Assembly (NCBI GenBank): GCA_019058445.1
Contig: JAHPZA010000006.1
Coordinates: 384,001 to 448,000, forward strand
Length of the DNA stretch: 64,000 nucleotides
Direction: 5' to 3'
Source of the DNA: Promethearchaeota archaeon
GTDB lineage: Archaea; Asgardarchaeota; Lokiarchaeia; Sigyniarchaeales; SOKP01
Shown here one piece after another: positions 12,574-58,036 of the stretch (position 1 is the stretch's first letter; each line of letters begins with the position of its first letter). Both the position numbers and the translations under genes were made by a program. The notes beneath the pieces were generated by a model, which searched no databases, was not told the DNA's origin, and was given only the letters and a program-made list of their open reading frames with translations.

Positions 12574-14519
12574 TTAAATACCTAATTTTGTTCTATTTGA
12601 TTCTATATGCTCCATCATAGCATCAACGGCTTGAACAGGATCTGTTTCAACATGCAGGATTCCCCCTGTAACATCCTTACAATCTACAGTTAAGAGTTTA
12701 ACTAAATTGGGACCGCCAGTGACAGTAGGGACCGGATTAACATATGTGTAAAGACCAAAGGCTAATGCGAAGATTGCATCAATTGTTGCCTTCTGCTCCA
12801 TTGGAACTCGCTAATATTGAATTAATTAGCAATATATTCTGGAGCAGCCGCGACTATAGGCAGATCTGGAATAGGCACACCTCCAAGAGCCCCAGATATA
12901 GCTCCGATTAAATCAGCTATTCGCCCTGTATCTGTGCATGTACCATAACTTAACACAGGGGGAACTGATAATTTCTCACATAAAGCTTTTAGACCTGGTC
13001 CAGCTAAATCTTTTGCTTCAAAAGAACAGAGTCCTGCCACTTGTAATGCTCCATTACCACACCCCATAGATAGGACCAATACATCCCTTTTAATTAATTC
13101 CTTAGCAATATTTATAGTATGTACATCTTGTCCATAATCTCTTAACGTTGTACAAGAAACTAATCCAGCTACACCTCGAATTGTGCCATTTTTTATAGCC
13201 TCTAATAAAGGCTCAATGCTACCACCGAGTGCTGCAACTATACTTTCAGTTGAAAATCCAACCAATGCTTCATTCATCTCTAATCCTGTCACTGGCTCTA
13301 TGTTTGCTCTCCGTTCTTGAAAATTATCAATAGCCATTTGTAAGAGTTTTCCTGCCTGTTCTTCTGCCTTTTCAGGAAGATAATCTAATCTTTCGGTTAT
13401 TCCTTCAAAAGCTACAACTTCCGATACTGGAATCAATTTAAACTTATATCTTTCAGCATAGAGCGGATCTATGGGCATAGAACAGTTCATGTCACATACA
13501 AACGCATCAATACAACCGCTCGCTAAGATTGCTTCTTGCATGATCCAATTTCCTGTGAATCCATAAAACACATCATCCATTTCCCATCGCTGTATCATTT
13601 CTTGCCCAGTTTCTATGTTAGCTATGATTCTTAATCCCTTAGCACCAACTGCTTTAGCTTTTTCTTGCCATTCTTGTTTACGCGCCAATTGAACCATCGC
13701 AAATCCTAAAAATGGTTCATGACCATTAGGAACAACATTCACATAATCGGGGTCCAAAACACCTAAGTTTACTCGCATTTTATGGGGTTTAGGTACATTA
13801 AATAAAATATCTTGACAAAATTCATTCACTATCTGACTCTGGTATGCCATAGCCACTCCTAGTCTCATCGCCTTAAGTGCTAAGCTGGCATAATAACCAT
13901 CTATATTTGTAAGACATGAACTAGTTGCCAACATCATTTCGCTATAAATTCCTCCCGGAAAGATATTTAATTTTTTCCAGACATCCTTCCTTTCTTTTGG
14001 TGCTAATGCTTCTACTATTTTACTTGAATCCGTGTAAGATCTATTAAAATCATCTTTTACAAATTCGCATAGGCGAAGCGCAATTTCTTTATCTGAACCA
14101 GAAGTATCAACTCCAAGACGTTTTGCAAAACTTTTCAACTTATCCGGTTCGCTAATTTTATAAGGTGTTTTACCTTCAGCTGTTGCCTTAAGGGTTTTAA
14201 TAGTTGTTTCTGTATGATAATGGTACGTGGAAGCCCCTAAAACATTTCTAAGTAGCATCATTCGCATTGCCATTCCATCTGCTGTAATTCCACATACACC
14301 TCTTTTATCGATAGAAGCATCCGCTCTACAAGGGCCATTAGAACATAAATCGCATCGAGCACCTTTTAAGCAAAATGGACATCTTTTATCAGGGACACCT
14401 CCAAAACCTTGTGCCTCAAAACGATCCCAGATATTAATCATACCATCTTTTTTAATTCTCTCATAAACTTTTCGTACTGACTCATGATACGATAATCTTT
14501 CACCTTCCAATTTCCACAC
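12574..14519 (-). CDS. cooS: CooS-family (Ni-CODH/HCP scaffold) protein, spliced: exon 1 14519-12834, exon 2 12801-12574, about 637 aa
   Basis: CPFC..GARCDLCSNGPC, GHEP, DMNC, SCTT, GCG, GTCTD. Removing the 32-nt insert joins AAPEY to MEQKATIDA, the expected continuous motif. True start may be TTG 14510 after GAGGTG. Confidence 0.9.
12802..12833 (-). other. Putative BHB (tRNA-endonuclease type) intron in cooS mRNA, 32 nt
   Basis: CUGCUCCA-GAAU-AU^A-UUGCUAAU-(9-nt loop)-AUUAGCGA-GUUC-CA^A-UGGAGCAG: 8-bp exon stem, 4-bp central helix, two 3-nt bulges, 8-bp intron stem. Confidence 0.88.
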
Positions 14520-14611
14520 CTCATTACTTTGTTAAAAATTTTTTAAGATAGATTGGTTTATAAAAATTCTATCTCTAAATTATTGAAATTTCTTAAGTAA
14601 ATATATCTATA

Positions 14612-14632
14612 TTCGAACATGTTCGAACATGT
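14612..14632. promoter_or_regulatory. Overlapping 16-bp palindromes upstream of cooS, candidate operator
   Basis: TTCGAACATGTTCGAA (14612-14627) and ACATGTTCGAACATGT (14617-14632) are both perfect palindromes, next to an AT-rich TATA-like stretch. Confidence 0.4.
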
Positions 14633-14692
14633 CCAGAAATGCTATAAAAAATTGAGTAAAAAATTGAAATTTAAAATTGCTTTTAATTTAAT

Positions 14693-17068
14693 TTAGTCAT
14701 ATTCCTTTGCAACTGGATATCCTTTACGATGCCACATCATCATTCCACCAGTCAAATTTCTCACGTCTTTAAACCCTGCTTGTACTAAAAGTTGGGCTGC
14801 CATCATCGATCGTGCTCCACTATGGCAAATAGTTATTACTTCTTCATCTTTATAATCGTTGAGAGCATCGAAATCATTCATGAGTTCACCAAGTGGCACT
14901 AATTTAGCTGATTTAATATGGCTTCCCACCCCATTATATTCCTGAGGAGTGCGTACATCAACCAGGATAGCAGGTGCGTCCTCTGACTCAAGCCTCTCAT
15001 ATAACTCATCAGCAGTTATGTCTGATAAGGCAGGGGCTTCAGGGGTTCTAAGTTCTTTTCTTGTTTTCCGTTCAACCTTTACAGGTGAAATAATTTCCCC
15101 TTGAGGGATTGTACCCTTCTCCAACGTAGCAACAAGCTTTCCTTCTTCTTTCCCTAAATATAATAAGTCAATGGCCTCATTTAATTTTGAATATGCTTCC
15201 ACACTTGATTTAAATCCTGGATCCGTTGCATATACTTTCAATTTTTTGCCTTCTGGGAGTGTATCAAGCCCTTTAATTAATGCATTTAAAGGTCCTGGAC
15301 AGCTTAATCCACAGGCATCTACTGTAATAAATTCATCATCTCCTGTTGCTTTTTCTTTTACGAAAGTTTCCATTTGCGCCTCAAATCCTCCACATGAGGC
15401 TACGATCTCTTCACATGAAGCACTTGCCATTTCATAGAGCTTATACCCTCCTGTTAGATCGTATACTTCTTTGTAACCATGCTGGAGAAGTATTCGAGTT
15501 GCTAAATAGCTTCTATATCCCACCTCACAATAAGCATAGATGGGTTTATTCTTTGGAATCTCTTCCATTCTATCTCTTAATTCTTCAATCGGAATATTTA
15601 TAGATCCCTCAATGGCTCTAGCGTTATGCTCTTCTGGTGTTCTTACATCTAATAAGACTACACCATTGTTTTTAAGATCATCAACATCATGCCAATGCCA
15701 AATAGGCATATCTCCTTTGAGGAAATTTGCTGCAACAAATCCAGCCATATTCACCGGATCTTTAGCTGAGCTGTAAGGAGGTGCATATGTTAGTTCTAGC
15801 TCTTCTAAATCAAAAACTGTACCTCCCATTTTTATAATCGTGGATATTACATCAATTCTCTTTTCCGTCCCTTGCCCTCCCACGATTTGTGCTCCTAATA
15901 CTTTTCCTGTAGGGACTTCAAACAGAAGTTTAAAAGCCATAGGAACAGCTCCCGGGTAATACCCAGCATGGTTATTAGGATGGACATATACTTTATCATA
16001 TTTAATCTCAGAATTTTTCAGCTGTTTTTCTGTTAAACCCACGGCTGCCACACTCACATCAAAAACTTTTACTACTGAAGCTCCTAAAATACCCTTATAT
16101 TCATTATCTCTCCCTGCTATGTTATCTGCTGCGATTCTTCCTTGCTTATTAGCAGGACCTGCTAAGGCAATAGCGATTGGATCTCTCGTTTGAAAATGGG
16201 TTACCTGAACGGCATCTCCTACAGCGTATATGTGAGTATCGGAAGTTTGCATTTTCTTATTCACAATAATATGCCCTCTCTGCCCTAAATCCAGTCCAGC
16301 GTCTTTTGCTAATTTACTCTGTGATCTAATTCCAATCGCTAATATAACCAGGTCTGTTTCAATCATACGACCATTTTTAGTCTTCACATAAGGCTTATCA
16401 CCATTAATTCTTCCAAAAGACTCTACGGGGTCCTCCAGAACTAAGCACACCCCATTTAAAATTAATTCCTGATGAATGAATTGGGCAATTTCTTTGTCGA
16501 ACGCGGGCATAACTTGATCAAGCATTTCTACAATTTTTACTTTAACACCTTTTTCTACTAAATTTTCTGCCATCTCTAATCCAATAAACCCGCCACCTAC
16601 AATAACCGCATGATTAATTGTTCTCTTATCTACAAAGTCTCTAATCTTGACTGCATCAGGAATTGTCCATATGGTATAATAAGGAATAGAATCTAATCCT
16701 TGAAATGGAGGAATTATTGGCTGTGAACCTGTAGCTAGAAGTAAATAATCATAATAAAGCTCGTACTCTTGCATATTTTGTAAATCTCTCACTTTAATCC
16801 TTTTCTTGGCTTTATCGATTGAAATCGCCTCGTTATTAACTCTTACGTCTATATTGAACCGTTCAAGAAATCTTTCAGGTGTGACCAATTCCAATGATTC
16901 TTTTTCCTTAATTACATTTCCAACGTAATATGGTAAGCCACAATTTGCAAAAGATACGTAAGGACCTTTATCAAGCATGATTATTTCAAAATCTTCTCTT
17001 AATCTCCTTAGACGAGCTGCGGCAGATGCGCCACCAGCAACTCCACCAACAATTATTACTTTCTTCAT
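14693..17068 (-). CDS. CoA-disulfide/persulfide reductase-like flavoprotein fused to rhodanese, TusA and a second rhodanese domain
   Basis: GGVAGG, SFANCGLPY, GGGFIGLE, YAPPYS; rhodanese DVRT..YCEVGYRS; TusA DACGLSCPGP; second rhodanese ICHSGARS. Confidence 0.9.
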   Translation of the reverse strand: MKKVIIVGGVAGGASAAARLRRLREDFEIIMLDKGPYVSFANCGLPYYVGNVIKEKESLELVTPERFLERFNIDVRVNNEAISIDKAKKRIKVRDLQNMQEYELYYDYLLLATGSQPIIPPFQGLDSIPYYTIWTIPDAVKIRDFVDKRTINHAVIVGGGFIGLEMAENLVEKGVKVKIVEMLDQVMPAFDKEIAQFIHQELILNGVCLVLEDPVESFGRINGDKPYVKTKNGRMIETDLVILAIGIRSQSKLAKDAGLDLGQRGHIIVNKKMQTSDTHIYAVGDAVQVTHFQTRDPIAIALAGPANKQGRIAADNIAGRDNEYKGILGASVVKVFDVSVAAVGLTEKQLKNSEIKYDKVYVHPNNHAGYYPGAVPMAFKLLFEVPTGKVLGAQIVGGQGTEKRIDVISTIIKMGGTVFDLEELELTYAPPYSSAKDPVNMAGFVAANFLKGDMPIWHWHDVDDLKNNGVVLLDVRTPEEHNARAIEGSINIPIEELRDRMEEIPKNKPIYAYCEVGYRSYLATRILLQHGYKEVYDLTGGYKLYEMASASCEEIVASCGGFEAQMETFVKEKATGDDEFITVDACGLSCPGPLNALIKGLDTLPEGKKLKVYATDPGFKSSVEAYSKLNEAIDLLYLGKEEGKLVATLEKGTIPQGEIISPVKVERKTRKELRTPEAPALSDITADELYERLESEDAPAILVDVRTPQEYNGVGSHIKSAKLVPLGELMNDFDALNDYKDEEVITICHSGARSMMAAQLLVQAGFKDVRNLTGGMMMWHRKGYPVAKEYD

Positions 17069-17645
17069 AATTATCTCATCATTTTTATGTTCTTACTTCT
17101 TAATTTTTAGTTACTCAAAAAATACTCACTACTTTACTAGATGGGATTAAATATCATTTTTTAAGATAATTCTTATGAGTTGTAAATTATGAATCTGTAT
17201 TTTCTTTTCTAATACAGATTTCTTTAGAAATTTCTTATGAATTAAAAAGATTATAATTATAATTTAGAGGGATAATACAAGAAAAATAATCCTTACATTT
17301 TCAATTAATTTTTCGTTGAATTTGTTTTAGCTGTGAAATATCTTCAGATTTACCAAAATTTCTATTTGACATCGCTGATTAAATTACTATAAATTATCTC
17401 TATAAGCTTAATCGGTAAAATAACACAAGTTCTTTTAAAATCTTTTAGTTTTTTTTCTAAATAATACATTATACTTTAAGTATAATTTATACTTTGGATA
17501 AATAATAACAAATTTAAAAATTAGACATATTTTATCTTGTTTTTATCTAATATAACGCACATTTAGGTTAATGTTGATAAATTTATAATAAGCTTCAAGA
17601 AAATTTATACAAAATTTTGAAAAAAGTAAGCTAAAAAAAAAATTT

Positions 17646-18458
17646 TTAATCTAATTTAGGTTGTCTTTCATCCAGAATTATAACCGCATCTATAAATAGC
17701 TCATAATTCTCATCTTCATCAAAATCATGGATGACAACTTTCTCCACTTCGTCAGTTTCACCCTTTATTTCCAAGAGCTCTGATTGTTGAATGATTTTCA
17801 CATCTGAGTGCTTCAATTTGCTTCTTAGTTCAGTATTCCCCGGTATTTCTTTCGCTGAAGTAACTACTATCACTCGACCTGTATATTCTGTTAAATTAAG
17901 TGCAAGTTCTAAAGACTCATCTCCGGAGTCTAAGATTAAAACTCTCTTGTTTTTAAATTCAGTTAAATCTTGAGCTTCTTTATATACTCCTTTTCCTAAG
18001 AATTCATCAACGCCAAGAATAACTTTTATATCTATTTGACAGGATGTCATGACCTCAACCTCAGGCTTAGTTCCATCTCGATAATTTCTAATGGCCGCCT
18101 GTAAAGCATCTGCAGCCAAATTGGAGCAATGCATTTTAATCGGAGGTAATCCATCAAGTTCATCTGCGACATCTTGCCTCGTGATTTTATATGCATCATC
18201 AAGTGTTTTACCTTTTGCCATTTCTGTAACCATTGATGATGTAGACACTGCTGAACCACATCCGAACGTTCTAAATTTAATATCATCTATGATATCCTCT
18301 CCTTTGTCATTCTTCCCCACTTTTATGAACATTTCCATAAGATCACCGCATACAGGATTTCCGACTTTCCCATATCCATCAGGGTCTTCTATTACTCCTA
18401 CATTTCTAGGATTTCGAAAATGATCTAATACTTTTTCTGAATAATTTGTTGATTTCAT
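17646..18458 (-). CDS. iscU: IscU/NifU-type Fe-S scaffold fused to a thioredoxin-reductase-like NAD(P)-binding domain fragment
   Basis: YSEKVLDHFRNPRNVG, GNPVCGD, FGCGSA, LPPIKMHCSNL; extra ~130 aa resembling the TrxB middle domain (GVDEFLGKGV...FKNKRVLIL..GDESLELAL). Confidence 0.85.
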   Translation of the reverse strand: MKSTNYSEKVLDHFRNPRNVGVIEDPDGYGKVGNPVCGDLMEMFIKVGKNDKGEDIIDDIKFRTFGCGSAVSTSSMVTEMAKGKTLDDAYKITRQDVADELDGLPPIKMHCSNLAADALQAAIRNYRDGTKPEVEVMTSCQIDIKVILGVDEFLGKGVYKEAQDLTEFKNKRVLILDSGDESLELALNLTEYTGRVIVVTSAKEIPGNTELRSKLKHSDVKIIQQSELLEIKGETDEVEKVVIHDFDEDENYELFIDAVIILDERQPKLD

Positions 18459-19652
18459 TTAACTATCCACCTCTTTATATTGTTTTAATAAATCAGGAGG
18501 CGTTAATGGTGATAAAATCCTTAACCTTTTAACTATTCCAGGTAATACTTCTATAATTTTATCTATATCCGCCTCTTTCGTAAATCTTCCTAAAGATAAT
18601 AATAAACTACCATGAGCTTCTTCATGCAATAAGCCCATAGCTATTAATGTATGTGAGGGTTCTAATGTTTTTGAACTACAAGCAGATCCAGTTGCTGCTG
18701 CAATTTTTTCGTCTTTTAAACCAAGAATTAAAGACTCTCCCTCAATGTAATCAAAACGAAAGTGGGCATTAATAGGAAGCCTTTTTTCAGGATGGCCATT
18801 TAAATGTGATTTTGGGATTGTGTCTAAGACACTTTTTATAACTTTATCTCTTAATTTCCTAAGACGTTCCGCTTCGGTAGTCATTTCTTCTTTCATGATT
18901 TCTGCTGCCTTTGCAAAACCCACTATTCCAGGTATATTTTCTGAGCCTGATCTCATCCCTCGCTCTTGTCCACCACCAATTATAACTGGATTTACTCGAA
19001 CACCTTTTTTCAAGTAAAGAGCCCCTACTCCTCTCGGTCCGTAAATATCGTTTGATGATAAAGTAATTAAATCTATAGGTACTTTTTGCACATCTATAGG
19101 TATGGTACTTTCGCTTGCAACTGCATCGGTATGAAACAAAATCTTTTTCTTAGATGCTATTTCACTTATTTCATTTATTGGTTGAAGGGAACCAACTTCA
19201 TTACTCGCAGTTGCAACAGAAATTAGAATGGTATTATCAGAAATCAAACGCTCAAGCTTATCCAACCGAATAATTCCATATTGATCAACAGGAACTCTGC
19301 TTACTTTAAAGCCTTGTCTTTCTAGATATTTTCCAAGATTTAAAATTGAGATGTGTTCAATTTCAGATATGATAACATGATCTCCTTTCTTTTGACGATT
19401 AAGTGCGGCACCAATTAAGGCTAAATTATTAGATTCTGTGGCGCTTGATGTAAAAATAATATCAGAAGGATTTGGAGCATTAATAAATTTAGCAACATTT
19501 TCACGAGATTGTTCTAATATATCTGTAGCTACATCTCCGTCACAATGTAAAGAAGAGGGATTTGCGAATTTTTCTTTAAAATAAGGAACCATTTCTGTCA
19601 ATACACGCTCATCTACTGGTCGTGCGGCTTGATAATCTAAGTATATACTCAT
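18459..19652 (-). CDS. iscS: IscS/NifS-family protein with the PLP-binding Lys replaced by Asp
   Basis: IYLDY, ANPSSLH, FHTDAV, GGGQERGMRSGSEN, GSACSS; SSNDIYGPRG where HK(I/F)YGPKG is usual. Confidence 0.85.
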   Translation of the reverse strand: MSIYLDYQAARPVDERVLTEMVPYFKEKFANPSSLHCDGDVATDILEQSRENVAKFINAPNPSDIIFTSSATESNNLALIGAALNRQKKGDHVIISEIEHISILNLGKYLERQGFKVSRVPVDQYGIIRLDKLERLISDNTILISVATASNEVGSLQPINEISEIASKKKILFHTDAVASESTIPIDVQKVPIDLITLSSNDIYGPRGVGALYLKKGVRVNPVIIGGGQERGMRSGSENIPGIVGFAKAAEIMKEEMTTEAERLRKLRDKVIKSVLDTIPKSHLNGHPEKRLPINAHFRFDYIEGESLILGLKDEKIAAATGSACSSKTLEPSHTLIAMGLLHEEAHGSLLLSLGRFTKEADIDKIIEVLPGIVKRLRILSPLTPPDLLKQYKEVDS

Positions 19653-19731
19653 AACATTATTCCTCCATAAGTTTTATCTTGTTTTTTTATTTTTATTAAT
19701 TCATATATTAAAAGTATAAAAAAATTTAAAA

Positions 19732-20097
19732 TTAAAACCACTGTGTAGCATCAGCTTCAAGAACCAAATCGTTTAATGTCGCGGCACCTACAATTTTTAC
19801 TCCCGGAATTAATTCCACCTTTTCCCATCCTAACATTCGTTTTGAAGCTTCACATACTAAAATTTCTATGCCCATTTCCAATGTTTTATCTAGCATTTCT
19901 TTTACGCTTGGAAAATCTCCGATTTTTATTTGTTCCGCTTCTCCAGGTTTTAGTATTTTTAATGCTGTTCCTAAATAGTACACTTTTGCTCCAAGGTCCA
20001 TAGCTTTTGCTGTCTGGGCTAATATTAAGGGAGAATATTGCCTCTCAGGAGCATCGCTTGTCTGTACATATAAAATCCATTTTTTATCTTCACTCAT
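19732..20097 (-). CDS. DsrE/DsrF-family protein
   Basis: GIEILVCEAS, GVKIVGAATL; 121 aa; sulfur-relay context. Confidence 0.8.
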   Translation of the reverse strand: MSEDKKWILYVQTSDAPERQYSPLILAQTAKAMDLGAKVYYLGTALKILKPGEAEQIKIGDFPSVKEMLDKTLEMGIEILVCEASKRMLGWEKVELIPGVKIVGAATLNDLVLEADATQWF

Positions 20098-20113
20098 TTT
20101 CTCTTATCCCATC

Positions 20114-20374
20114 TTATTTTTTTTTCCTAAATATAAATGTTAAAATGCCATCTTCATTGGTAAAATCTAAGATTTCTGTTTCGGTACGTTTTGCCCATCT
20201 CTGTAAATCCTCTTCAGCAGCAGGATCATCGGCTACCACCCTAAAACATTGACCAACTTCAACAGATTCAGATAAATTGCGTACTTCAAACAAGGGTTCA
20301 GGACAAAATAATCCAGTAGTGTCTAATTCCTCTATAATTTCAATATCTTCTTTATCGTTCATTTTAATACCCAT
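20114..20374 (-). CDS. tusA: TusA/SirA sulfur carrier
   Basis: LDTTGLFCPEP, VADDPAAEEDL. Confidence 0.85.
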   Translation of the reverse strand: MGIKMNDKEDIEIIEELDTTGLFCPEPLFEVRNLSESVEVGQCFRVVADDPAAEEDLQRWAKRTETEILDFTNEDGILTFIFRKKK

Positions 20375-20882
20375 ATTTTATTTTTTTAATTTTAAATTTG
20401 AATTGATCTCTATGATTAATGAGTACAAGTAAAAACAAAAATATTCTCATTATAAATTAGTGAAATTACAAGGCACTCTTAAAAATACGATTAATCCCTT
20501 TCTAAAAGAACCTTATAAATTATAAGTTCTTTAAAAAGGAATCCCTTTCTGAAAAAAGGATGAAGCTTAAAAAAAGATCAAAAAATTTATGAAATAATTG
20601 GAAACTTGGAAAAAAAAGAATGAGAGAATCGAGAAAAGCAATCCAAAACACAAGCGTTTCGGACATGGGATAAAATTTAGTTACCATTTAATTAGGAAAT
20701 TAGGGGATATTATGTATGTTTTCTCGAGTTCCCTCTATCTTCATAAGGAAAATCTAATATATAAATGTTTTTTCCAAAAAGATACGATTAAAAGAAAAAT
20801 CTAATATGGAACTCCATTAATATGGGCAAATCTCAAGTAGTAAAAGGCTGAATTTTAAATTTTTAAAAAAATTGTATATTAT

Positions 20883-21659: not shown

Positions 21660-21682
21660 ATAAAATATTGATATAATTAAAC

Positions 21683-46069: not shown

Positions 46070-46132
46070 AAATAAATTCTCTTTTTTTTCCTTTTTTAAA
46101 CTCATAATAGTAAAAATAAGACTGAGTTTTCT

Positions 46133-50349: not shown

Positions 50350-50497
50350 ATAAACTCAGAATTTCAAGATAAATCATTATTTACCGAATATTTTTATATT
50401 CAGAATTTAAACTAATATTATATCTACATAATTTATTTTTGATTAATCTTTTATATTGATATCAACATCGACATATTGATCTATAAATTGGTTCAAA

Positions 50498-52429
50498 GTG
50501 GTAAATAAAGAATTAACTGAGATTCTAAATCAACTCAGTGAGATCTTTTCTGAGGAAATCTTTAATCTTAAAATGCATAAAAAAGCCTACTTCAATATTT
50601 TAGAAAAGAATAAAGATAAGTTCGAGAAATTCTTAGATCTCATAAGATCAAAATGGTTGGAATTTAAAAAAGTTAATCAGAAAAGAGTAATAAAGAAAAC
50701 ATTTACCAGCTTTTTATACATTAATTTCCATCAGTTCTTTAAATTATATTTACAGGATTTTTTTGGATTTGAAGCTGATTCCTTAGAACTAATTATAAAA
50801 GAAAATATATCAGATGATACTCTACTTTTAGAATACAAGTATCATTTAACCTCTGAAGAGATAGATCTTTATGAAGCTACTTCTAAAAAAGTTAAAGGTA
50901 ACCTTTATGGTTTACTATTCTTTACAGGATATTTATATCTTTTAACTGATGTCATAGGGATTTTAATTAGAAAGACGATAGGAGAGAAAATCTTAATTAA
51001 TCTCGATTGTGGAATAATAAAAAACGAAGATGACCATAATTTTCTAAATTTCTTGATATTAATTAGAAGTGATAAAAAAGAAGTTTATGTAAATTACTTT
51101 TATATGACATTATATTACTTTCTTAAACAATTTAAAGGAATCCCAGATGAATATTATGATAGATTGCTTAAAGGAAGAGAAAGATTATACCAAATTGCAT
51201 TGGATCAATACCCTACGGTAAAAGAGAGATTAGCCAATTTACTATATTATTTTTATAAAAAATGTAATTTATTAGAAAACTTCTGTCCCTTGTTAGATTT
51301 TTTAAACTTTGTATGCTCGCGTGTTGAAGACTCTTCGTTTTCTAAACATGATGTTATTAGAAAAGAGTTTTTAGATAATTTTGATTATACTATTGAAAAA
51401 AAAAATTCATTAACCAGAATTTTCGATTTCTTGGATCAGAAAAGTACCCTTTATAGTACGTTTCAAGCAAATAATCTTCCATCTCAAAAATCTCAATTTA
51501 ATTTATTTTTACTGATAATGAAATATTACTTTGCGAGTGGATTAGAAGCTTTTGAAGTGAGTGACTTACTATTTCTACCCGAGACGTTTAAAAAGAGGTT
51601 GAATCAACATAATAAATCTGTGAAGGAAGGAGTAATAGGATCAAATATTATCAATGATATAAATGAATTTATTAACTACTTTGCAATTTTGTCAAACAGT
51701 GGGGATATAAATAGCAATTTTAAAACAATATTTAATAAGGAAGTCTCTCAAATGAATTATCGATTTTTTAGGTCCTTTTTAAAGAGTTTTAATACGAAAT
51801 TTTTATCTTTAATAGATAAAGAGAATGAGATATTATCTGAGAACCCGAAAAATGAGCTTTATACATTTAATATTATTGTAGACCATATTTCCAGAATGTT
51901 ATACGTATTAATAGATAAAATTTTCCTCACTTCATCCAATCCCGATGACTCTTCAAAAAATTTTATTGATCCTCGAGGAAGATATATAGGGAAAAATATT
52001 GCTTTAAGAGTTCTTGAACTTTTTATTTTCCAAGAATTTAATTATTCAGATGATATCTGGCCCGAGATATTGATCTCTCTAAATGCTAATAAGGTTAAAA
52101 AAGATTTGAAAAATATTGTGGATATTCCTAATAAATCCTTTTATAATGATAAAGATTTAACCAAGTTTGTCACTACTTATAATCTGCAATCACTTAGTCC
52201 TGCATTATTTTTTGAAGAATGGTTAATAAATGAAATTATCTTGCCACTCAATAAGTTTATTTTGCATATTAGAAAATTAGTAAAGGACCCTTTTAATAAA
52301 AAAGAAATTACAGAACAACTTTTTAATTATTTCCGCAAGGATCGCAAGACGATAGATAAGAGAACATTAAATGAATTGAAATTTGTAAGTGAGCGACTTG
52401 CTCAATTTTGGGTTAGGAAATCGAATTAA
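50498..52429 (+). CDS. Hypothetical protein
   Basis: 643-aa ORF, no recognised motif. Confidence 0.6.
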   Translation: MVNKELTEILNQLSEIFSEEIFNLKMHKKAYFNILEKNKDKFEKFLDLIRSKWLEFKKVNQKRVIKKTFTSFLYINFHQFFKLYLQDFFGFEADSLELIIKENISDDTLLLEYKYHLTSEEIDLYEATSKKVKGNLYGLLFFTGYLYLLTDVIGILIRKTIGEKILINLDCGIIKNEDDHNFLNFLILIRSDKKEVYVNYFYMTLYYFLKQFKGIPDEYYDRLLKGRERLYQIALDQYPTVKERLANLLYYFYKKCNLLENFCPLLDFLNFVCSRVEDSSFSKHDVIRKEFLDNFDYTIEKKNSLTRIFDFLDQKSTLYSTFQANNLPSQKSQFNLFLLIMKYYFASGLEAFEVSDLLFLPETFKKRLNQHNKSVKEGVIGSNIINDINEFINYFAILSNSGDINSNFKTIFNKEVSQMNYRFFRSFLKSFNTKFLSLIDKENEILSENPKNELYTFNIIVDHISRMLYVLIDKIFLTSSNPDDSSKNFIDPRGRYIGKNIALRVLELFIFQEFNYSDDIWPEILISLNANKVKKDLKNIVDIPNKSFYNDKDLTKFVTTYNLQSLSPALFFEEWLINEIILPLNKFILHIRKLVKDPFNKKEITEQLFNYFRKDRKTIDKRTLNELKFVSERLAQFWVRKSN

Positions 52430-52433
52430 TATT

Positions 52434-52949
52434 CTACTTTAAATCAAAAATTTCTAAAAATTTTTGAAATTCTTTTTCAATATTCACAATAGGTAGGTCT
52501 AAAATTTCTGAATTTCTATCATTTTCTTTACAAATTAATCCTGAAATCATTCTTACATCAATAGATAATTGAGACTCAATCTCTTTAAAATTTTTTGCGC
52601 ATAATATTGTAGGATAGTTCAGATTTCTAAATCCTTCAATAAAAATTAAGTCTACATTAAATGGACCAAGGGAAATCCATTTAATTACTTCTTCGATTTC
52701 AATTTTATTCTTGATAAAAATAACAGTCTCATTAAAATCATTCATTGTAATGGCAAATTTTGCCCCTGCTTGAGAATATTCGTATGTATCCTTTCCCTCT
52801 TTATCAATTTGATGCTCATGAATGTATTTAATAACTGCTGCATTGAGATTTAGTTTACTTTTTAGACCTTTAATAGCTTTAAGAATAAAATGAGTTTTTC
52901 CGCTTCCAGAATATCCAATTAATCCTATAACTTTAAGATTAGACTGCAT
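52434..52949 (-). CDS. mobB: Molybdopterin-guanine dinucleotide biosynthesis protein B
   Basis: GYSGSGKT, IDKEGKDT, AGA, DLIFIEGF. Confidence 0.85.
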   Translation of the reverse strand: MQSNLKVIGLIGYSGSGKTHFILKAIKGLKSKLNLNAAVIKYIHEHQIDKEGKDTYEYSQAGAKFAITMNDFNETVIFIKNKIEIEEVIKWISLGPFNVDLIFIEGFRNLNYPTILCAKNFKEIESQLSIDVRMISGLICKENDRNSEILDLPIVNIEKEFQKFLEIFDLK

Positions 52950-53337
52950 TTTTCTTGACTTACTTAAAATCTATTATTTTGTAAGTTAGTTTGACCTAAG
53001 GATTTAGTGGATTTATATTTAATTATTCTATTAAATCAGCATCTATGATAATTTCCCTTAATATTTCTGTTTGTTTTGTAATTGTTAAAAATACGGGTAA
53101 TTCCGACAAAAAAACTAGCATTAAATATATGCATATTATGGATTATCTAAGTTCTTAGAAAAGATCGAGACTTCTATAAATTTAAGAGCTTAAAATCAAC
53201 TCTATCATGTATCTATCTTCCGGAATTTTAATTCTAGGTTAATAATTAAATATAAATAATAATTGACTTCAATTTTTCTTTAAATAATTACAGTTTTTGA
53301 GAATAATTTGCTTAACTTGATATAGAGAAGCAATATT

Positions 53338-53769
53338 ATGATTGCTAAAACCTATAAAAAAAGATATCAAGATATTATCGAAGAAACCTATTATATTCCT
53401 CAGGTATCTAAGTTAAATTTGAACGAATTTCAAAAAAGGAAGTCATCACTCATTTCAGAACTAACTTTTTTACTTACTACTCATAATAATTCAAAAAATG
53501 AGTATACTAATATATCGAAATTAATCATCTCAACGTTAAACGCTCCTGAAGCGTATTTCTTAGATAAAATATTTTCCTTTAAAAAAATTAATCCATTTGA
53601 ATGTTTTGATTTGAAAGATTATCTTGTAACGATTAAAAAAGTCAGCAGTTTACTAGGGCAAAATTCGTTTCTGCCAGTTCAAAAAATCTTAGAAAATTGT
53701 AATCTTGAAAGATTTTTCATAAAGCTCTTTTTAAAAGATTTTCTATTAAATAATCAGTATCTCAAATAA
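53338..53769 (+). CDS. Hypothetical protein
   Basis: 143-aa ORF only. Confidence 0.4.
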   Translation: MIAKTYKKRYQDIIEETYYIPQVSKLNLNEFQKRKSSLISELTFLLTTHNNSKNEYTNISKLIISTLNAPEAYFLDKIFSFKKINPFECFDLKDYLVTIKKVSSLLGQNSFLPVQKILENCNLERFFIKLFLKDFLLNNQYLK

Positions 53770-53891
53770 AATACATTATGGCAAACCAGCTCACTACCTT
53801 ATGGAGGTTCTACAATTCAGCAAATATTATTAAAGTTTTCATACATATTTATAATATATTTTCAACATTTACAAAATAGTACTGTGAATTT

Positions 53892-55889
53892 ATGTCCAAA
53901 AAAGGAGAACGAATCGTATTTGATGCTAATTTTTTTATATGTATGCTGGCGGTAAAAGCAAAGAATATTCTTGAAAACTTAAACAGGGCAGCAAAAGATT
54001 TAGAACTTGATTACTATATTTCTGAAGTTGTTCTTAATGAAATAAAATCTCCAACAACATTTAAAGATAAACTGAAAAAGATTGTAAATGTTGAAAAAGT
54101 TCAAGAAAATGAGATTTCAGATATAAAGGAAGATTTAAAACAGTATAATGTTAAATTTCCTGCCCAAGATCCTGATTTATCTCTTGTGGTTTTAGGTAAG
54201 AGACTTATGGGTGATGATGATAAAACACCCTTACATTTAGTCACAGATGATTTTAAATTAGCTAAAAATACAAATCTCTTATTTAGGGGTAAATTCAATA
54301 TCTTGTCTCTCTCAAGTTTCCTCCTAAAACTTCAGAGAACGTCAACGAAACCACAATTACGGAATTATTTCAAAAATATTTGGCAGAAAAGTTTAAATTA
54401 CACTTTGAGCTACATGATTGAACGCTCAAAAATATATCCAGCAGAGCAAAAAATTCAATGGCTTATTGAAAAAGCAATCAGCGTGACTGAAGATTCAATT
54501 CTATCATCTGATCTTGAAATCGTGAATCCAGATGCTGGTGTAAGATTTGAAATTGGGGCAACTAAGTATGCGGAGGAGCTAGAAGTATGTGAAAAATATA
54601 TTGAAAATCAAAAACTACCTCAAAGTGAAGAACAAAAAGTTGAATCTATAATTACCTTTCTTGAAAATCTTAAGATTTCACGAGAATACATCAAACGAGC
54701 ACGAGAAGCCATAATCAAAAATGAATCCAAAGATGCAGTAAAGTTTTTAAAAAAAGGAAATGGATTTTTAGTTTCATTATTACAATTAGCTTCGGGGCAA
54801 TTAGAAAAATATAAAGATTATCAAATTGTTGAACAACTTATATGTTCAGAAATCAGTAAAATGGAATTCTTACGAGCATTCCTCCTCGTTTCTCTTGGTC
54901 GGATCAGTACTTCTATAGATTCTCTTGAACGAGCTGCCTTATTTTCAACGATCATTCATAATTTTCAAACATGCTTGACATTAAATTATGTTAAAGCATT
55001 GATTTTGTTATTTCATGGTTTATATTCAAACGCCATAATGCAATATAACTTCACAGAAGAACTCGCTGAAATCTACAATGATGATAAGTTAAAACTTAAA
55101 TGCCTAATTGGTAAGGCAATTGCTATTTATATTCAAGGAGAGGATAGGAATACTGCAATAACCATCATGGATGAAATTTCGAATATAGATCTTGAAAAAA
55201 ATTTCTTAGATGCTATTATAGTATTTAGTGAACTTGGTGATTACTTCTTAGCTTTGGGGCATTCTCAAATTGCTGCTAACCTTTATAATGAAGCACTAGA
55301 AATAAGTATTGATTACAAATTATCTTTTAAAAGCGATATTTTAATCGAAAAATTAAAACGGGCATATATAGCGACTGTACTAGAAGGATATTCTGCAGAA
55401 GATATTATGGTTGATAAACTGGACATTTTACTTGACAAGGCTTATTCAGTGAAAGATGTTGAAAAATATAACGAGCAAATTAAAAAGATTTCAAGTTTTA
55501 ATATCCTGTTTTATACACCTTTTCCCCACATCTCAGGAAAAAAAAAAGTAATCCCTTTTTCTAAGCTTCCAGATGAGCTAAAAGAAGACTACTTAGAAGT
55601 AGTTCATTTTGAGAAACTAGACAATGAGAAACAAAATCAAGTCCTTTTTATTGTCTCTCACTATGAACTAGGATTATTAGGGATTAAAGTGAAAACAGAT
55701 GAAAATATCACAGGAATTGCTGAAAACTACTCCCTCAAATTAAAACCTACAAGTAAAGCAAAAATTTATGAACCTGATGAAGAATTAAAAGAAGCCTATT
55801 TAATTCGTGCTGTAATAGAAATTACGGCAATTAATCAATGCGAAATAATTTATACGCTTCCATCTTTCTTTAAACAGTTGAATCTATGA
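53892..55889 (+). CDS. PIN-domain protein with TPR-like repeats
   Basis: IVFDANF, VLNE, DLSLV, LVTDDFKL (PIN acidic residues); helical repeats such as LGDYFLALGHSQIAANLYNEALEI. Confidence 0.7.
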   Translation: MSKKGERIVFDANFFICMLAVKAKNILENLNRAAKDLELDYYISEVVLNEIKSPTTFKDKLKKIVNVEKVQENEISDIKEDLKQYNVKFPAQDPDLSLVVLGKRLMGDDDKTPLHLVTDDFKLAKNTNLLFRGKFNILSLSSFLLKLQRTSTKPQLRNYFKNIWQKSLNYTLSYMIERSKIYPAEQKIQWLIEKAISVTEDSILSSDLEIVNPDAGVRFEIGATKYAEELEVCEKYIENQKLPQSEEQKVESIITFLENLKISREYIKRAREAIIKNESKDAVKFLKKGNGFLVSLLQLASGQLEKYKDYQIVEQLICSEISKMEFLRAFLLVSLGRISTSIDSLERAALFSTIIHNFQTCLTLNYVKALILLFHGLYSNAIMQYNFTEELAEIYNDDKLKLKCLIGKAIAIYIQGEDRNTAITIMDEISNIDLEKNFLDAIIVFSELGDYFLALGHSQIAANLYNEALEISIDYKLSFKSDILIEKLKRAYIATVLEGYSAEDIMVDKLDILLDKAYSVKDVEKYNEQIKKISSFNILFYTPFPHISGKKKVIPFSKLPDELKEDYLEVVHFEKLDNEKQNQVLFIVSHYELGLLGIKVKTDENITGIAENYSLKLKPTSKAKIYEPDEELKEAYLIRAVIEITAINQCEIIYTLPSFFKQLNL

Positions 55890-56175
55890 ATATAAAAAAT
55901 AAGATATTTAAGCACTTAAATATTTCTTGGCGATAGCGCCCCCTTTTGCAAATTTTGATATTTTTTCAATAAATTCTGTTTTAAGAGCCATTCGGTAATC
56001 CTCTTGGAATGCTATGAAAACTTTTTTGAACAAAAGGTTAAAATAGTTTATTCCAATATTTCCAGATTACACTTCATTTTTTTTTAGAAGACAATTCAAT
56101 CTAAACTATTTAAAGAAAAATCAAAAGAACTAGAAAATACTAAAAAGATATAAATTTAAAATATTGTATTAGATT

Positions 56176-57402
56176 ATGATTGAGATTTCCTTAGAACAAG
56201 CTCAACGTTTTATTCTTGAGAAACAAGGATTATTAACTACAAAACCAGCAAAATCGGTTTTAGAAGTTGCTAGAAAGATTCATAATATTCAAATTGATAC
56301 TATCTCAGTTGTCGCAAGATCACATGATTTAACAATATACAATAGATTTGAGAATTACACTGAGAAGGAAATCTGGGATAATTTAAGGAGAAAAGAGTTA
56401 TTCGAGTATTATTCACATGGACTCTGTTTAATACCTATAGAAGATTATCCATTCTATAAATTCTGTATGGATGATTATCGTGACAGAGAAAAAAACTCAA
56501 GGTGGGAGAAATGGTTAACAGTCAATCAAAAGATTGTAGATTTTGTTTTGAATAGGGTGAAAAAGGAAGGCCCATTGTCAAGTAAAGATTTCAAAGTTCC
56601 TGAAGAAAGAAAATCTAAAGGTTGGTTTGAATGGAAGGAAGAAAAGCGAGCGTTAGAATATCTATTCTATCGTGGTGATTTATTGATTAACCATCGAGAA
56701 GGTTTCCAAAAATACTATGATATACCAGAGAGAGTTCTCCCCCTAAATATTAGTCATGAACCAATGACCATTAAGGATGCACCTGATTATCTATTAAATA
56801 CTACTTTATCATCATTAGGTATTTGTGATTATGAGGAAATTAAGAGCTATATCAGAAGTCGAACTTTAAAATTAATATGGAATAATAAACCTAGTTTAAT
56901 TACTGAATACTTGGAAGAAAAGGTAAAGGATGATACACTTATAAAAGTCAATGTTCAGGGCATTGATAGAACACAATTTATTAAATCTACAGATAGCAAG
57001 AAGATTGAAACGGTTAAATCACTAGAGTCTGCAGAAGCAAAATTGATTAATCCTTTTGATAACGTTGCTCGAGACAGAAATTTACTAAGAAAATTCTGGA
57101 ATTTTAATTACAAACTAGAAGCTTATACTCCTGCTCCAGATAGAATTTTTGGTTATTATTTGATGCCGATTCTAATCGATCATCAAATCATAGGTCGTCT
57201 TGAACCTAAGGCTCATAGGAAAGAGTCGAGACTAGAAATAAAATCAATATTTTTTGAGAACTGGTTTAAACCAAGTAAAAACTTCTATGAAAAATTAGCT
57301 AAAGGTCTTTGGAAGTTTGCTACATTTCATAATTGCACTGAAATTACTTTGAATGATAAAATAAATAAAGATATTAAGAATACTTTAACATCTGTTCTCT
57401 AA
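56176..57402 (+). CDS. YcaQ/AlkZ-like (HTH_42) crosslink-repair DNA glycosylase
   Basis: IQIDTISVVARSH (QxD motif), LFEYYSH, NPFDN, YKLEAYTP...GYYLMPIL. Confidence 0.85.
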   Translation: MIEISLEQAQRFILEKQGLLTTKPAKSVLEVARKIHNIQIDTISVVARSHDLTIYNRFENYTEKEIWDNLRRKELFEYYSHGLCLIPIEDYPFYKFCMDDYRDREKNSRWEKWLTVNQKIVDFVLNRVKKEGPLSSKDFKVPEERKSKGWFEWKEEKRALEYLFYRGDLLINHREGFQKYYDIPERVLPLNISHEPMTIKDAPDYLLNTTLSSLGICDYEEIKSYIRSRTLKLIWNNKPSLITEYLEEKVKDDTLIKVNVQGIDRTQFIKSTDSKKIETVKSLESAEAKLINPFDNVARDRNLLRKFWNFNYKLEAYTPAPDRIFGYYLMPILIDHQIIGRLEPKAHRKESRLEIKSIFFENWFKPSKNFYEKLAKGLWKFATFHNCTEITLNDKINKDIKNTLTSVL

Positions 57403-57543
57403 TGTTAATTGTTTAAGAGATGATTAGATGAAGTATGTAAAAATGAAGGATTTGTATTCATTTGGGAAACAGTTCAGTATTGGGATAGATGAGCAAATTA
57501 AGAAGCTCGAGTTAAATAGGAGTATAATTGCAGAAATAAATCC

Positions 57544-57621
57544 ATAATGGAAGTTACCGCAAAAAATCAATGTGAAATAATCTATACTCTGCCATCTTTC
57601 TTTAAACAACTTAATTTATAA
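57544..57621 (+). pseudogene. Orphan diverged copy of the last 25 codons of the PIN-TPR gene (55812-55889)
   Basis: Encodes IMEVTAKNQCEIIYTLPSFFKQLNL* versus VIEITAINQCEIIYTLPSFFKQLNL*. Confidence 0.8.
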
Positions 57622-57734
57622 GAATTCAGTTAATTTCAGATAAAATTAGATTTAACATTAGGGGTATTCTATCTTAAAACCTTGAGTTAAAAAGGAATAA
57701 AAGTTAAAAATTAATATTTTTTTATAAATTGTAC

Positions 57735-58036
57735 TCACTCTTTTCGCAAGTTTTTATCTCGTTGACTAACTTGATGACTATGAACTGCGCAGCTTATGCA
57801 ATAATACTTTTTATTCTGTCCGCTCATGATAATCGTCCCAGCTTTTTTAAGTTCCCCATACATTCTTCCATCAACGAGCGATGTTCGACGAGTAACTGCT
57901 TTAGCTTTGCTTTTTACAGTGAATACGAAATGTTAAACACTCTTGCAACAAATCTTCCACACTTACTACACTGAACTTTGCCATAATTTCCCTTGCTGCT
58001 GCCAGTTTTACCACCAGATTTTCTTTTCTTAGGCAT
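57735..58036 (-). CDS. rps26e: Ribosomal protein S26e, spliced: exon 1 58036-57942, exon 2 57912-57735, 90 aa; absent from the ORF track
   Basis: SD AGGAGG at 58050-58045. Spliced product MPKKRKSGGKTGSSKGNYGKVQCSKCGRFVARSKAKAVTRRTSLVDGRMYGELKKAGTIIMSGQNKKYYCISCAVHSHQVSQRDKNLRKE has the eS26 motifs MPKKR, CxxCGR and YCISCAVH. Confidence 0.9.
57913..57941 (-). other. Putative BHB intron in rps26e mRNA, 29 nt
   Basis: UUUGU-UGCA-AG^A-GUG-(16 nt)-CAC-UGUA-AA^A-AGCAAA: 4-bp central helix, two 3-nt bulges, 3-bp intron stem, imperfect exon stem; canonical cuts restore the frame. Confidence 0.8.

What the first reader, a model, noticed from the sequence alone, without database searches (positions are those of the whole stretch)
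12802..57941. Two independent BHB introns in 64 kb suggest a genome-wide tRNA-type mRNA splicing system in an Asgard archaeon
Seen: two unrelated genes carry short inserts (32 and 29 nt) with no obvious sequence similarity but the same geometry. Both have lengths not divisible by 3, an in-frame TAA, 3-nt bulges ending in A, and positions inside conserved motifs. Both restore the frame under the same cleavage rule, which is unlikely by chance. Inference: if this density holds, many genes called split or pseudogenes in this lineage may be spliced, giving a possible post-transcriptional control layer. It recalls eukaryotic non-spliceosomal HAC1/XBP1 splicing, which also uses tRNA ligases, and bears on intron origin in the lineage closest to eukaryotes. 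No endA or rtcB gene is visible in this window, and in-frame (3n) introns could have escaped my manual reading.
Basis: inference. Interest (0 to 1): 0.93.

Follow-up and report, generated by a model that had tools for sequence, protein, structure and literature searches.

The report
tRNA-type mini-introns in Asgard protein genes
Two protein genes of this uncultured Asgard (Promethearchaeota) archaeon, a CO dehydrogenase and ribosomal protein eS26, are each broken by a roughly 30-base hairpin intron of the kind normally cut out of tRNAs; environmental RNA shows the eS26 one removed, and about 1% of the genome's genes carry similar inserts.

Summary

- **CODH insert:** a textbook bulge-helix-bulge (BHB) motif. 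In 16 aligned relatives, and in 71 of 80 further loci at protein level, the gene is uninterrupted exactly at the predicted cut sites. Two other Asgard MAGs carry a homologous intron at the same site, with four compensatory pair changes.
- **eS26 insert:** a relaxed BHB, shared by three congeneric genomes and absent from 11 relatives. RNA contigs from four metatranscriptome runs (three studies) lack exactly these 29 nt. They are 96-98.5% identical to intron-bearing genomes and 64-73% to intronless ones.
- **Genome-wide:** a motif-free comparison with a congener found 10 frame-breaking 27-32-nt inserts among about 1,056 orthologues, including EF-2, GyrB and an aIF2-gamma-like GTPase. Six have a strong BHB, against a 1% chance rate. 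That suggests a few dozen introns in this genome.
- **Enzymes:** RtcB and a non-catalytic EndA subunit are present. The catalytic EndA subunit was not found in this 92.6%-complete assembly.
- **Not supported:** no evidence bears on a regulatory role.

The papers I could search report mRNA BHB introns only for cbf5. This scan has found the same thing in other Asgard genomes.

The parts
12834..14519 (-). CODH (CooS-type catalytic subunit) exon 1, 562 codons, ending ...AAAPEY
   Evidence: TIGR01702 positions 1-546, E = 6.6e-194. Pfam Prismane positions 3-457.
12802..12833 (-). Intron 1: 32-nt BHB intron with an in-frame TAA
   Evidence: Clean 32-nt insertion relative to 16 orthologues. Homologous 32-nt introns sit at the same site in L138 and L148. 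In the inner helix, 4 of 8 pairs change on both sides and all cells stay paired.
12793..12847 (-). Whole hBHBh' motif of intron 1. Outer helix 12847-12840 with 12800-12793. Central helix 12839-12836 with 12807-12804. Bulges 12835-12833 and 12803-12801. Inner stem 12832-12825 with 12815-12808.
   Evidence: Read from the sequence. The minimum-free-energy fold gives both 8-bp helices, -23 kcal/mol, z = -4.8.
12574..12801 (-). CODH exon 2, 75 codons plus stop, starting MEQKATID
   Evidence: TIGR01702 positions 547-621. Against the closest orthologue, 24 codons differ synonymously and 7 nonsynonymously.
57942..58036 (-). eS26 exon 1 (31 codons plus 2 bases of the junction codon)
   Evidence: NF006816 / PF01283 positions 1-30.
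57913..57941 (-). Intron 2: 29-nt relaxed BHB intron with an in-frame TAA at its 3' end
   Evidence: The same 29-nt insert is present in congeners G007 and G008 and absent from 11 relatives. It is left out of RNA contigs in 4 metatranscriptome runs.
57906..57952 (-). BHB motif of intron 2. Outer helix 57952-57948 with 57910-57906. Central helix 57947-57944 with 57918-57915. 5' bulge 57943-57941. 3' bulge within the A-run 57914-57911. Inner hairpin 57940-57919.
   Evidence: Read from the sequence. The outer and central helices are invariant and 100% paired in the three intron-bearing genomes. The inner stem is 83% paired, with one pair changed on both sides.
57735..57912 (-). eS26 exon 2 (1 base of the junction codon, 58 codons, stop)
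   Evidence: NF006816 positions 33-90. Between G000 and G008, 38 codons differ synonymously and 7 nonsynonymously across the spliced gene.

Best explanation
Both inserts are archaeal bulge-helix-bulge (BHB) introns in pre-mRNA.

**How it most likely works**
1. The primary transcript folds so that each exon-intron boundary lies in a 3-nt bulge. The two bulges flank a 4-bp helix made from the last bases of exon 1 and the last bases of the intron.
2. The tRNA-splicing endonuclease EndA cuts after the second base of each bulge.
3. The RNA ligase RtcB joins the exons.
4. This restores the reading frame and the conserved motifs (APEY-MEQKA in CODH, FVAR-SKAK in eS26).

**Scope**
- These are two members of a set of roughly 25-50 such mini-introns of about 27-32 nt in this genome, or about 1% of its genes.
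- The set includes essential genes (eS26, EF-2, GyrB, an aIF2-gamma-like GTPase).
- A congener carries far fewer (1-2 against 10 in the same comparison).

**What is shown and what is inferred**
- Shown: the geometry, the insertion boundaries, conservation of the structure, selection on the exons, and removal of the eS26 intron at the RNA level.
- Inferred: that EndA and RtcB are the enzymes.
For: **Geometry and frame**
- Both introns have BHB geometry, and one cleavage rule restores the frame in both.
- The family profiles run on without a gap across the junctions.

**Orthologues**
- CODH is uninterrupted in 16 relatives aligned at nucleotide level. The G000 insert is exactly the 32 nt between the predicted cuts.
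- 71 of 80 further loci are ungapped across the junction at protein level.
- The eS26 insert is present in G000, G007 and G008 and absent from 11 relatives. In those relatives exactly one codon bridges the exons, as the splice rule predicts.

**Conserved structure**
- Homologous 32-nt CODH introns in two other MAGs keep the inner helix 100% paired, with 4 of 8 pairs changed on both sides.
- G000's exon flanks carry synonymous changes (GAA to GAG, CAA to CAG, CCT to CCA) that lengthen the outer helix.

**Live genes**
- Synonymous against nonsynonymous codon differences are 38:7 for eS26 and 24:7 for the CODH exon downstream of the frameshift.
- eS26 is the only copy in the genome.

**RNA**
- One contig in each of 4 metatranscriptome runs (3 studies) spans eS26 with exactly 29 letters left out at 57912.
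- There are no mismatches between 57877 and 57970.
- The contigs are 98-98.5% identical to intron-bearing G007, or 96% to G000.
- They are only 64-73% identical to the intronless congeners.

**Genome-wide**
- Ten frame-breaking inserts of 27-32 nt were found per 1,056 orthologues.
- Six have a strong BHB, against 41 of 4,000 random windows and 0 of 8 stop-free indels.
- The affected genes include EF-2, GyrB, an aIF2-gamma-like GTPase, Acs, HDAC and Sir2.

**Machinery**
- RtcB is intact and an EndA subunit is present.
- Of 23 tRNA genes that ARAGORN can find, 19 have introns.
Against: - The only EndA gene found in this assembly aligns F and S where M. jannaschii EndA has the catalytic Tyr and His. 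The residue numbering is from my memory; the alignment is. It therefore looks like the structural beta subunit.
- The catalytic alpha subunit is present in all 9 congeners, but neither Pfam nor tblastn found it here. The assembly is 92.6% complete and has 5 scaffold gaps.
- The RNA contigs come from close relatives in other samples, not demonstrably from this organism. The DNA of those populations was not examined.
- No RNA evidence was obtained for the CODH intron.
- Intron 2 departs from the strict motif, and its fold is no better than shuffles.
- A BHB-first scan filtered on long flanking ORFs showed almost no excess of the correct cleavage rule over shifted rules. I attribute this to hairpins between adjacent operon genes, and to many introns lying close to the 5' ends of genes.
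Confidence: 0.88

Rival explanations
1. The inserts stay in the mRNA and the ribosome skips them. This would be programmed translational bypassing, as in phage T4 gene 60 or the 27-55-nt 'byp' elements of a yeast mitochondrion (both from my own knowledge), or a programmed frameshift.
For: - The inserts are short, contain a hairpin and carry an early in-frame stop. Bypass elements share these features.
- No RNA evidence was obtained for the CODH insert.
Against: - RNA contigs lack the eS26 insert precisely.
- There are no matching take-off and landing codons. In CODH, TAT precedes the insert and TTCCA precedes the resuming ATG. In eS26, AG|A is followed at the far end by a run of A.
- The conserved features are those of a BHB: a 4-bp helix between exon and intron and two 3-nt bulges, with compensatory changes.
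- A simple frameshift would add about 10 residues inside conserved motifs. The orthologues show no such residues.
Confidence: 0.03
2. The inserts are disruptive insertions. They would be tiny palindromic mobile elements or replication slips, and the two genes would be pseudogenes on their way out.
For: - The CODH insert is absent from the closest relative, which is 94% identical at protein level, so it could be recent.
- The inner stem of the eS26 intron is partly degraded in G000.
Against: - eS26 is single-copy and interrupted in three genomes. Its exons differ mostly at synonymous sites, 38:7.
- The CODH exon downstream of the frameshift is intact and under purifying selection, 24:7 and 32:9.
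- The same CODH intron is kept, with compensatory changes, in two other MAGs.
- Six of ten such inserts genome-wide have a precise BHB, against a 1% chance rate.
- RNA lacks the eS26 insert.
Confidence: 0.03
3. The introns are removed from the RNA, but not by EndA and RtcB. Some other endonuclease and ligase, or self-cleavage, would do it. The BHB-like shape would then be incidental, or would be recognised by a different enzyme.
For: - No catalytic EndA subunit was found in this assembly.
- Intron 2 departs from the strict motif.
Against: - The cut positions are exactly those of EndA on a BHB, after the second bulge base on both strands with 4 bp between the bulges, in both introns and in six others.
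- All 9 congeners encode the catalytic alpha subunit, and 8 of them also a beta-like paralogue.
- Asgard EndAs are reported to carry the loop that gives broad substrate range (PMC5829648).
- RtcB is present.
- The inserts match no Rfam family, self-cleaving ones included.
Confidence: 0.05
4. The inserts are assembly or sequencing artefacts of this MAG.
For: The CODH insert is seen in only one genome among the 40 nearest relatives.
Against: - The eS26 insert is present in three independently assembled genomes.
- A homologous CODH insert is present in two further MAGs from other studies.
- An artefact would not produce a perfect BHB with the exon flanks.
Confidence: 0.01

Closest known systems
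BHB intron in the cbf5 (aCBF5 pseudouridine synthase) pre-mRNA of Crenarchaeota (Watanabe et al. 2002; Yoshinari et al. 2006, both as cited in PMC5829648; Yokobori et al. 2009, PMC2738675)
   Same: - A protein-coding transcript is interrupted by a short intron in a bulge-helix-bulge motif.
- The intron is removed by the tRNA-splicing endonuclease and a ligase.
- Its distribution among relatives is patchy, with gains and losses.
- The host lineage has a hetero-oligomeric EndA with broad substrate range.
   Different: - The case here is not one gene. A few dozen genes of unrelated function are affected (CODH, eS26, EF-2, GyrB, an aIF2-gamma-like GTPase, Acs, HDAC, Sir2 and others).
- The host is an Asgard (Promethearchaeota) genome.
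- The introns have a narrow size class of 27-32 nt, little more than one hairpin.
- The load differs about ten-fold between two species of one genus.
Intron-rich tRNA genes of Asgard archaea (Valentin-Alvarado et al. 2024, PMC11291895; bioRxiv 10.64898/2026.10.13.758758)
   Same: - Same lineage, same motif and the same presumed enzymes.
- In this genome ARAGORN finds only 23 tRNA genes, 19 of them with introns. That fits the heavy interruption described in these papers.
   Different: Those papers, as far as I searched them, deal with tRNA genes only. Here the substrates are mRNAs, so a splicing error changes a protein's reading frame.
HAC1 / XBP1 unconventional mRNA splicing in eukaryotes
   Same: An mRNA intron outside the spliceosome is excised by a protein endonuclease at stem-loops. 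The exons are joined by a tRNA ligase, which is RtcB in animals. Removal shifts the reading frame. (My own knowledge.)
   Different: - The endonuclease is Ire1, not the tRNA-splicing endonuclease.
- It recognises paired 7-nt loops, not a BHB.
- It is a regulated, single-target stress switch. No regulation is shown here.
Translational bypass elements (T4 gene 60; mitochondrial 'byps')
   Same: Short inserts with a hairpin and an early stop lie inside conserved coding sequence, and many can occur in one genome. (My own knowledge.)
   Different: Bypass elements stay in the mRNA and need matched take-off and landing codons. Here the eS26 insert is missing from RNA, and no matched codons exist.

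Membership tests
Archaeal BHB intron (EndA substrate) | [quoted passage not shown] | tested here: met
   - Intron 1: bulges AUA and CAA, helix GAAU/GUUC, an exact fit.
- Intron 2: helix UGCA/UGUA and 5' bulge AGA are exact. The 3' bulge lies in a run of five A and is 3 nt (with a poor outer helix) or 4 nt (with a 5-bp outer helix), so the motif is relaxed.
Archaeal BHB intron (EndA substrate) | Flanking helices: h (exon with exon) and h' (within the intron) | tested here: met
   - Intron 1: 8 bp and 8 bp.
- Intron 2: a 5-bp outer helix, and an inner stem of 3 bp next to the bulge in G000 but 8 bp with one bulged base in G007 and G008.
Archaeal BHB intron (EndA substrate) | Cutting after the second base of each bulge gives the mature sequence | tested here: met
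   - The predicted junctions equal the uninterrupted sequence of orthologues for both genes.
- The profile matches are contiguous across them.
- Intron 1 has a 1-nt ambiguity (A on both sides), and intron 2's 3' cut lies in an A-run.
Archaeal BHB intron (EndA substrate) | The intron is absent from the mature RNA | tested here: inconclusive
   - eS26: RNA contigs of 4 runs lack exactly the 29 nt and come from the intron-bearing clade. They are contigs from relatives in other samples, and the DNA of those samples was not seen.
Archaeal BHB intron (EndA substrate) | The structure is conserved through compensatory change | tested here: met
   - CODH intron: inner helix 100% paired in 3 sequences, with 4 of 8 pairs changed on both sides. 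Sliding the partners drops pairing from 93% to 20-45%.
- eS26: only one pair changes on both sides, which is weak. Each comparison has just three sequences.
Archaeal BHB intron (EndA substrate) | The host encodes a catalytic splicing endonuclease (EndA) | tested here: inconclusive
   - One EndA-family gene was found, at C9:770309-770918.
- It aligns F and S at the catalytic Tyr and His of 1a79, so it is beta-like.
- The alpha subunit was not found in this assembly, although all 9 congeners have it.
Archaeal BHB intron (EndA substrate) | The host encodes the RtcB ligase | tested here: met
   PF01139 positions 1-426, 574 bits, in a 492-aa open frame at C1:114713-116020.
Translational bypass element | Matched take-off and landing codons, with the insert retained in the mRNA | tested here: not met
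   No matched codons flank either insert. The eS26 insert is missing from RNA contigs.
Group I / group II self-splicing intron | A ribozyme core detectable by covariance models, hundreds of nucleotides long | tested here: not met
   The inserts are 29 and 32 nt long. The window has no Rfam match at gathering score.

The most novel reading that the evidence does not exclude
In Promethearchaeota, cutting and rejoining of messenger RNAs by the tRNA-splicing enzymes would be a regular, obligatory step of gene expression.

- It would affect essential genes for translation and replication.
- The introns would spread in lineage-specific bursts. This genome carries about ten times more than a species of the same genus, and homologous introns occur at one site in distantly related MAGs. 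That implies an active route of intron gain or transfer, such as reverse splicing followed by reverse transcription, or gene conversion.
- Many introns lie near the 5' ends of genes. Output of ribosomal protein, EF-2 and aIF2-gamma would then depend on splicing capacity.
- That dependence would give a primitive coupling between RNA processing and translation in the closest prokaryotic relatives of eukaryotes.
Probability: 0.3. Interest if true: 0.92.

Novelty: new variant of a known kind. Interest (0 to 1): 0.78.

Why it matters
- **What is known:** enzyme-mediated (BHB) splicing of a protein-coding transcript is documented in archaea for essentially one gene, cbf5, in Crenarchaeota.
- **What is new here:** it appears as a genome-wide habit in an Asgard archaeon. 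It hits single-copy essential genes (eS26, EF-2, GyrB, an aIF2-gamma-like GTPase) as well as metabolic genes. For one gene, environmental RNA shows the spliced form.
- **Annotation:** gene callers will report such genes as split, frameshifted or pseudogenes in Asgard MAGs. Metabolic and phylogenomic inventories of this much-studied lineage are therefore slightly wrong.
- **Evolution:**
  - The lineage nearest to eukaryotes tolerates introns in mRNAs and depends on their removal.
  - This makes questions about intron gain, loss and cost directly testable in cultured Asgard strains.
- **Limit:** it does not show any link to spliceosomal introns.

Tried and rejected
**BHB-first genome scans with a frame-restoration test**
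- These compared the correct cleavage rule with rules shifted by 1 or 2 nt.
- The excess was small or absent, for example 72 against about 58 at the strictest setting.
- Two causes:
  - hairpins between adjacent same-strand genes swamp the signal;
  - many real introns have short upstream ORFs of 16-49 codons.
- I dropped this as a counting method. The count of strict BHBs does bump at 30 nt (455 against about 400).

**Junction peptides of BHB candidates against the congener**
- The criterion was too lax and did not separate correct from shifted rules: 10 against 7-11.

**Paralogue-supported split genes**
- The method works but has low yield. Insert sizes of 29, 30, 30 and 30 nt stood out.

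**RNA runs**
- The first search, with 3.4 kb, listed no RNA holder.
- The second, with 471 bases, listed six runs with small shares.
- Reads were laid on eS26, so CODH was not examined.

**The catalytic EndA subunit in this genome**
- Pfam PF01974 and PF02778, phmmer with the beta-like protein, and tblastn with congeners' alpha proteins found only the beta-like gene.
- A weak tblastn hit at C6:1144680 lies in a 262-aa frame that I read by eye, from its sequence alone, as a lipoate-protein ligase-like protein.
- Synteny around the congener's alpha gene is not kept, so I cannot say whether the gene falls in an assembly gap.

**Literature**
- Seven searches found no paper on BHB introns in Asgard protein genes.
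- That is only 'not found in the library held'.

**Further introns in the window**
- Nothing convincing turned up beyond the two.
- In-frame introns without a stop codon cannot be excluded for genes whose congener orthologue was not loaded.
Full report
**What is there**

The window is C6:384001-448000 of a 4.61-Mb, 10-contig assembly with 31% G+C. It is 92.6% complete. The closest public relatives are titled 'Promethearchaeota archaeon' MAGs, so this is an Asgard archaeon.

Two minus-strand genes are broken.
- **CODH.** The frame that starts at 14519 is a CooS-type anaerobic CO dehydrogenase. It stops at a TAA four codons after ...AAAPEY. The rest of the protein (MEQKATID...) follows in another frame from 12801.
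- **eS26.** The gene at 58036-57735 stops at a TAA after ...CGRFVAR and resumes in another frame.

Removing 32 nt (12802-12833) and 29 nt (57913-57941) gives single open frames of 637 and 90 codons. The pieces match TIGR01702 at positions 1-546 and 547-621, and the eS26 model NF006816 at 1-30 and 33-90. Nothing is lost or duplicated at the junctions.

**Geometry**

Intron 1 sits in a textbook hBHBh' motif.
- The outer helix is 8 bp between the two exons.
- The central helix is 4 bp (GAAU/GUUC) between the end of exon 1 and the end of the intron.
- The bulges are 3 nt each (AUA, CAA).
- The inner stem is 8 bp with a 9-nt loop.
- Cutting after the second bulge base on each strand removes exactly the 32 nt.
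- The 66-nt region folds at -23 kcal/mol with z = -4.8, and no shuffle folds as well.

Intron 2 has the central helix (UGCA/UGUA) and the 5' bulge (AGA) in the right register. Its 3' bulge lies in a run of five A. Its inner stem in this genome has only 3 bp next to the bulge, and its fold is unremarkable. It is a relaxed BHB.

**Comparative test of the cut sites**
- **CODH, nearest relatives.** The gene is uninterrupted in all 20 relatives that have it, apart from loci cut by contig ends. That includes a congener at 94% protein identity. A nucleotide alignment of 16 of them shows one clean 32-nt gap, exactly between GAATAT and ATGGAG.
- **CODH, wider set.** Of 80 further orthologues, 71 are ungapped across the junction. 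Two carry a 32-nt insert at the same site: L138 (isolate 9R3_44) and L148 (isolate DZ1M.411).
- **CODH, structure.** The three introns are homologous. Their inner helix is paired in every cell, and 4 of its 8 pairs change on both sides. Sliding the partners drops pairing from 93% to 20-45%.
- **CODH, exon flanks.** G000's flanks differ from the closest intronless orthologue by synonymous changes that lengthen the outer helix.
- **eS26.** The same 29-nt insert is present in congeners G007 and G008. It is absent from 11 relatives, including four of the same genus, in which exactly one codon bridges the two exons. The central helix, both bulges and the outer helix are invariant among the three intron-bearing genomes. 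The inner stem is better in G007 and G008 (8 bp) than here.

**The genes are alive**
- eS26 is the only copy in the genome.
- Between G000 and G008, the spliced eS26 gene differs at 38 synonymous and 7 nonsynonymous codons.
- The CODH exon downstream of the frameshift differs from orthologues at 24 synonymous against 7 nonsynonymous codons, and at 32 against 9.

A frame that was not translated would not be kept this way.

**RNA**

Six metatranscriptome runs hold small parts of the eS26 region. I laid four of them, from three studies. Each gave one contig of 209-265 nt that spans the gene with exactly 29 letters left out at 57912. None had a mismatch between 57877 and 57970.

Reconstructed from their listed differences, the contigs compare as follows.
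- They are 98-98.5% identical to the exons of G007, or 96% to G000. Both of those genomes carry the intron in DNA.
- They are only 64-73% identical to the intronless congeners.

They therefore come from inside the intron-bearing clade and show the spliced form. Two caveats apply. These are assembled contigs from relatives in other samples, and the DNA of those populations was not examined. CODH could not be tested.

**Genome-wide**

Scans that start from the motif were swamped by hairpins between adjacent genes.

A motif-free census worked. I loaded 1.59 Mb, about half, of the congener G005. I searched its ORFs against this genome and listed every insertion.
- About 1,056 ORFs were orthologous. 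Ordinary indels fall off with length (22, 15, 12, 6 and 0 at 12 to 24 nt). A second peak follows at 27-33 nt.
- Ten inserts of 27-32 nt contain stops or shift the frame. Six of them have a perfect 4-bp central helix and an 8-9-bp inner stem in the right register.
- The same criterion is met by 41 of 4,000 random windows and by none of 8 stop-free indels of similar size.
- The orthologues of the interrupted genes are:
  - EF-2, DNA gyrase B and an aIF2-gamma-like GTPase;
  - acetyl-CoA synthetase, a histone deacetylase and a Sir2 protein;
  - a CotH kinase, a flavin reductase, an amino-acid-kinase fusion and one protein of unknown family.
- The reverse search found only one or two such inserts in G005.

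Scaled to the genome, this means a few dozen introns, about 1% of genes, and roughly ten times the load of the congener. A bump of about 50 extra strict BHBs at exactly 30 nt agrees with that. Several introns lie 16-49 codons from the start of the upstream frame.

**Machinery**
- RtcB is intact.
- The one EndA-family gene (202 aa) is most like M. jannaschii EndA. It aligns F and S at the positions of the catalytic Tyr and His, and keeps the Lys (residue numbers from memory).
- In Pfam score it groups with the weaker of the two paralogues that eight of the nine congeners searched possess. It is therefore most likely the structural beta subunit.
- The congeners' alpha subunit, which has the triad, finds nothing else in this assembly.
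- I take this as incompleteness of the assembly, but it remains open.
- ARAGORN finds only 23 tRNA genes, 19 of them with introns. This fits published reports of heavily interrupted Asgard tRNA genes (PMC11291895; 10.64898/2026.10.13.758758).

**Compared with what is known**

The mechanism is that of the cbf5 pre-mRNA intron of Crenarchaeota (PMC2738675, and references in PMC5829648). What differs is the number and variety of genes, the Asgard host, the uniform size of about 30 nt, and the difference in load within one genus.

None of seven searches of the held library found a report of BHB introns in Asgard protein genes.

Earlier notes of this scan describe the same kind of intron elsewhere in this genome and in other Asgard classes. 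My census independently recovered the EF-2 intron and a split in acs.

**Verdict**

The interpretation as tRNA-type mRNA splicing is supported, with RNA evidence for one of the two introns. A genome-wide system exists, at the scale of about 1% of genes. A regulatory role is untested.

Noticed in passing
G000:C9:770309-770918 (+), locus L001:1219-1827: The only EndA-family gene in the assembly aligns F and S at the catalytic Tyr and His of M. jannaschii EndA, so it looks like a structural beta subunit. The catalytic alpha subunit, present in all 9 congeners, was not found in this assembly.
   Followed up: partly
L138:3178-3209 (JAHLWP010000002.1, isolate 9R3_44) and L148:3178-3209 (JBHLLG010000004.1, isolate DZ1M.411): Homologous 32-nt introns sit at the same CODH site in two MAGs that are more distant (85-86% protein identity) than the intronless closest relative (94%). 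The patchy distribution implies either repeated loss or transfer.
   Followed up: partly
G000 whole genome (ARAGORN): Only 23 tRNA genes are detectable in 4.6 Mb, and 19 of them have introns of 7-118 nt. Most tRNA genes are probably too interrupted to be found. The calls include a tRNA-SeC, a tRNA-Pyl and a 'tRNA-Stop', none of them verified.
   Followed up: no
G000:C4:158207-158209 (-), C3:330819-330821 (+), C10:552017-552019 (+), C10:33981-33983 (-): Four long genes (275-1,000 codons) carry a single in-frame TAA where a paralogue has a sense codon, with no extra length. They could be pseudogenes, sequencing errors or something else. A further 25 paralogue-supported single stops, mostly in short frames, are TGA.
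   Followed up: no
G005:C2:11572-11602 (-): The congener has its own 30-nt stop-containing insert with a strong BHB (4-bp helix, 8-bp stem) that is absent from this genome. Intron gain or loss therefore goes both ways within the genus.
   Followed up: no
G000:C10:622058-622259 (-): The acetyl-CoA synthetase gene shows a split with overlapping query ranges and a nearby 60-nt insertion relative to the congener. I did not resolve the structure.
   Followed up: no
L014 / L185 (G020:C121, JARRLT010000121.1): This relative's CODH gene diverges completely a few codons after MEQKA and ends early. The 3' end looks truncated or rearranged, at the very site where the intron sits in other genomes.
   Followed up: no
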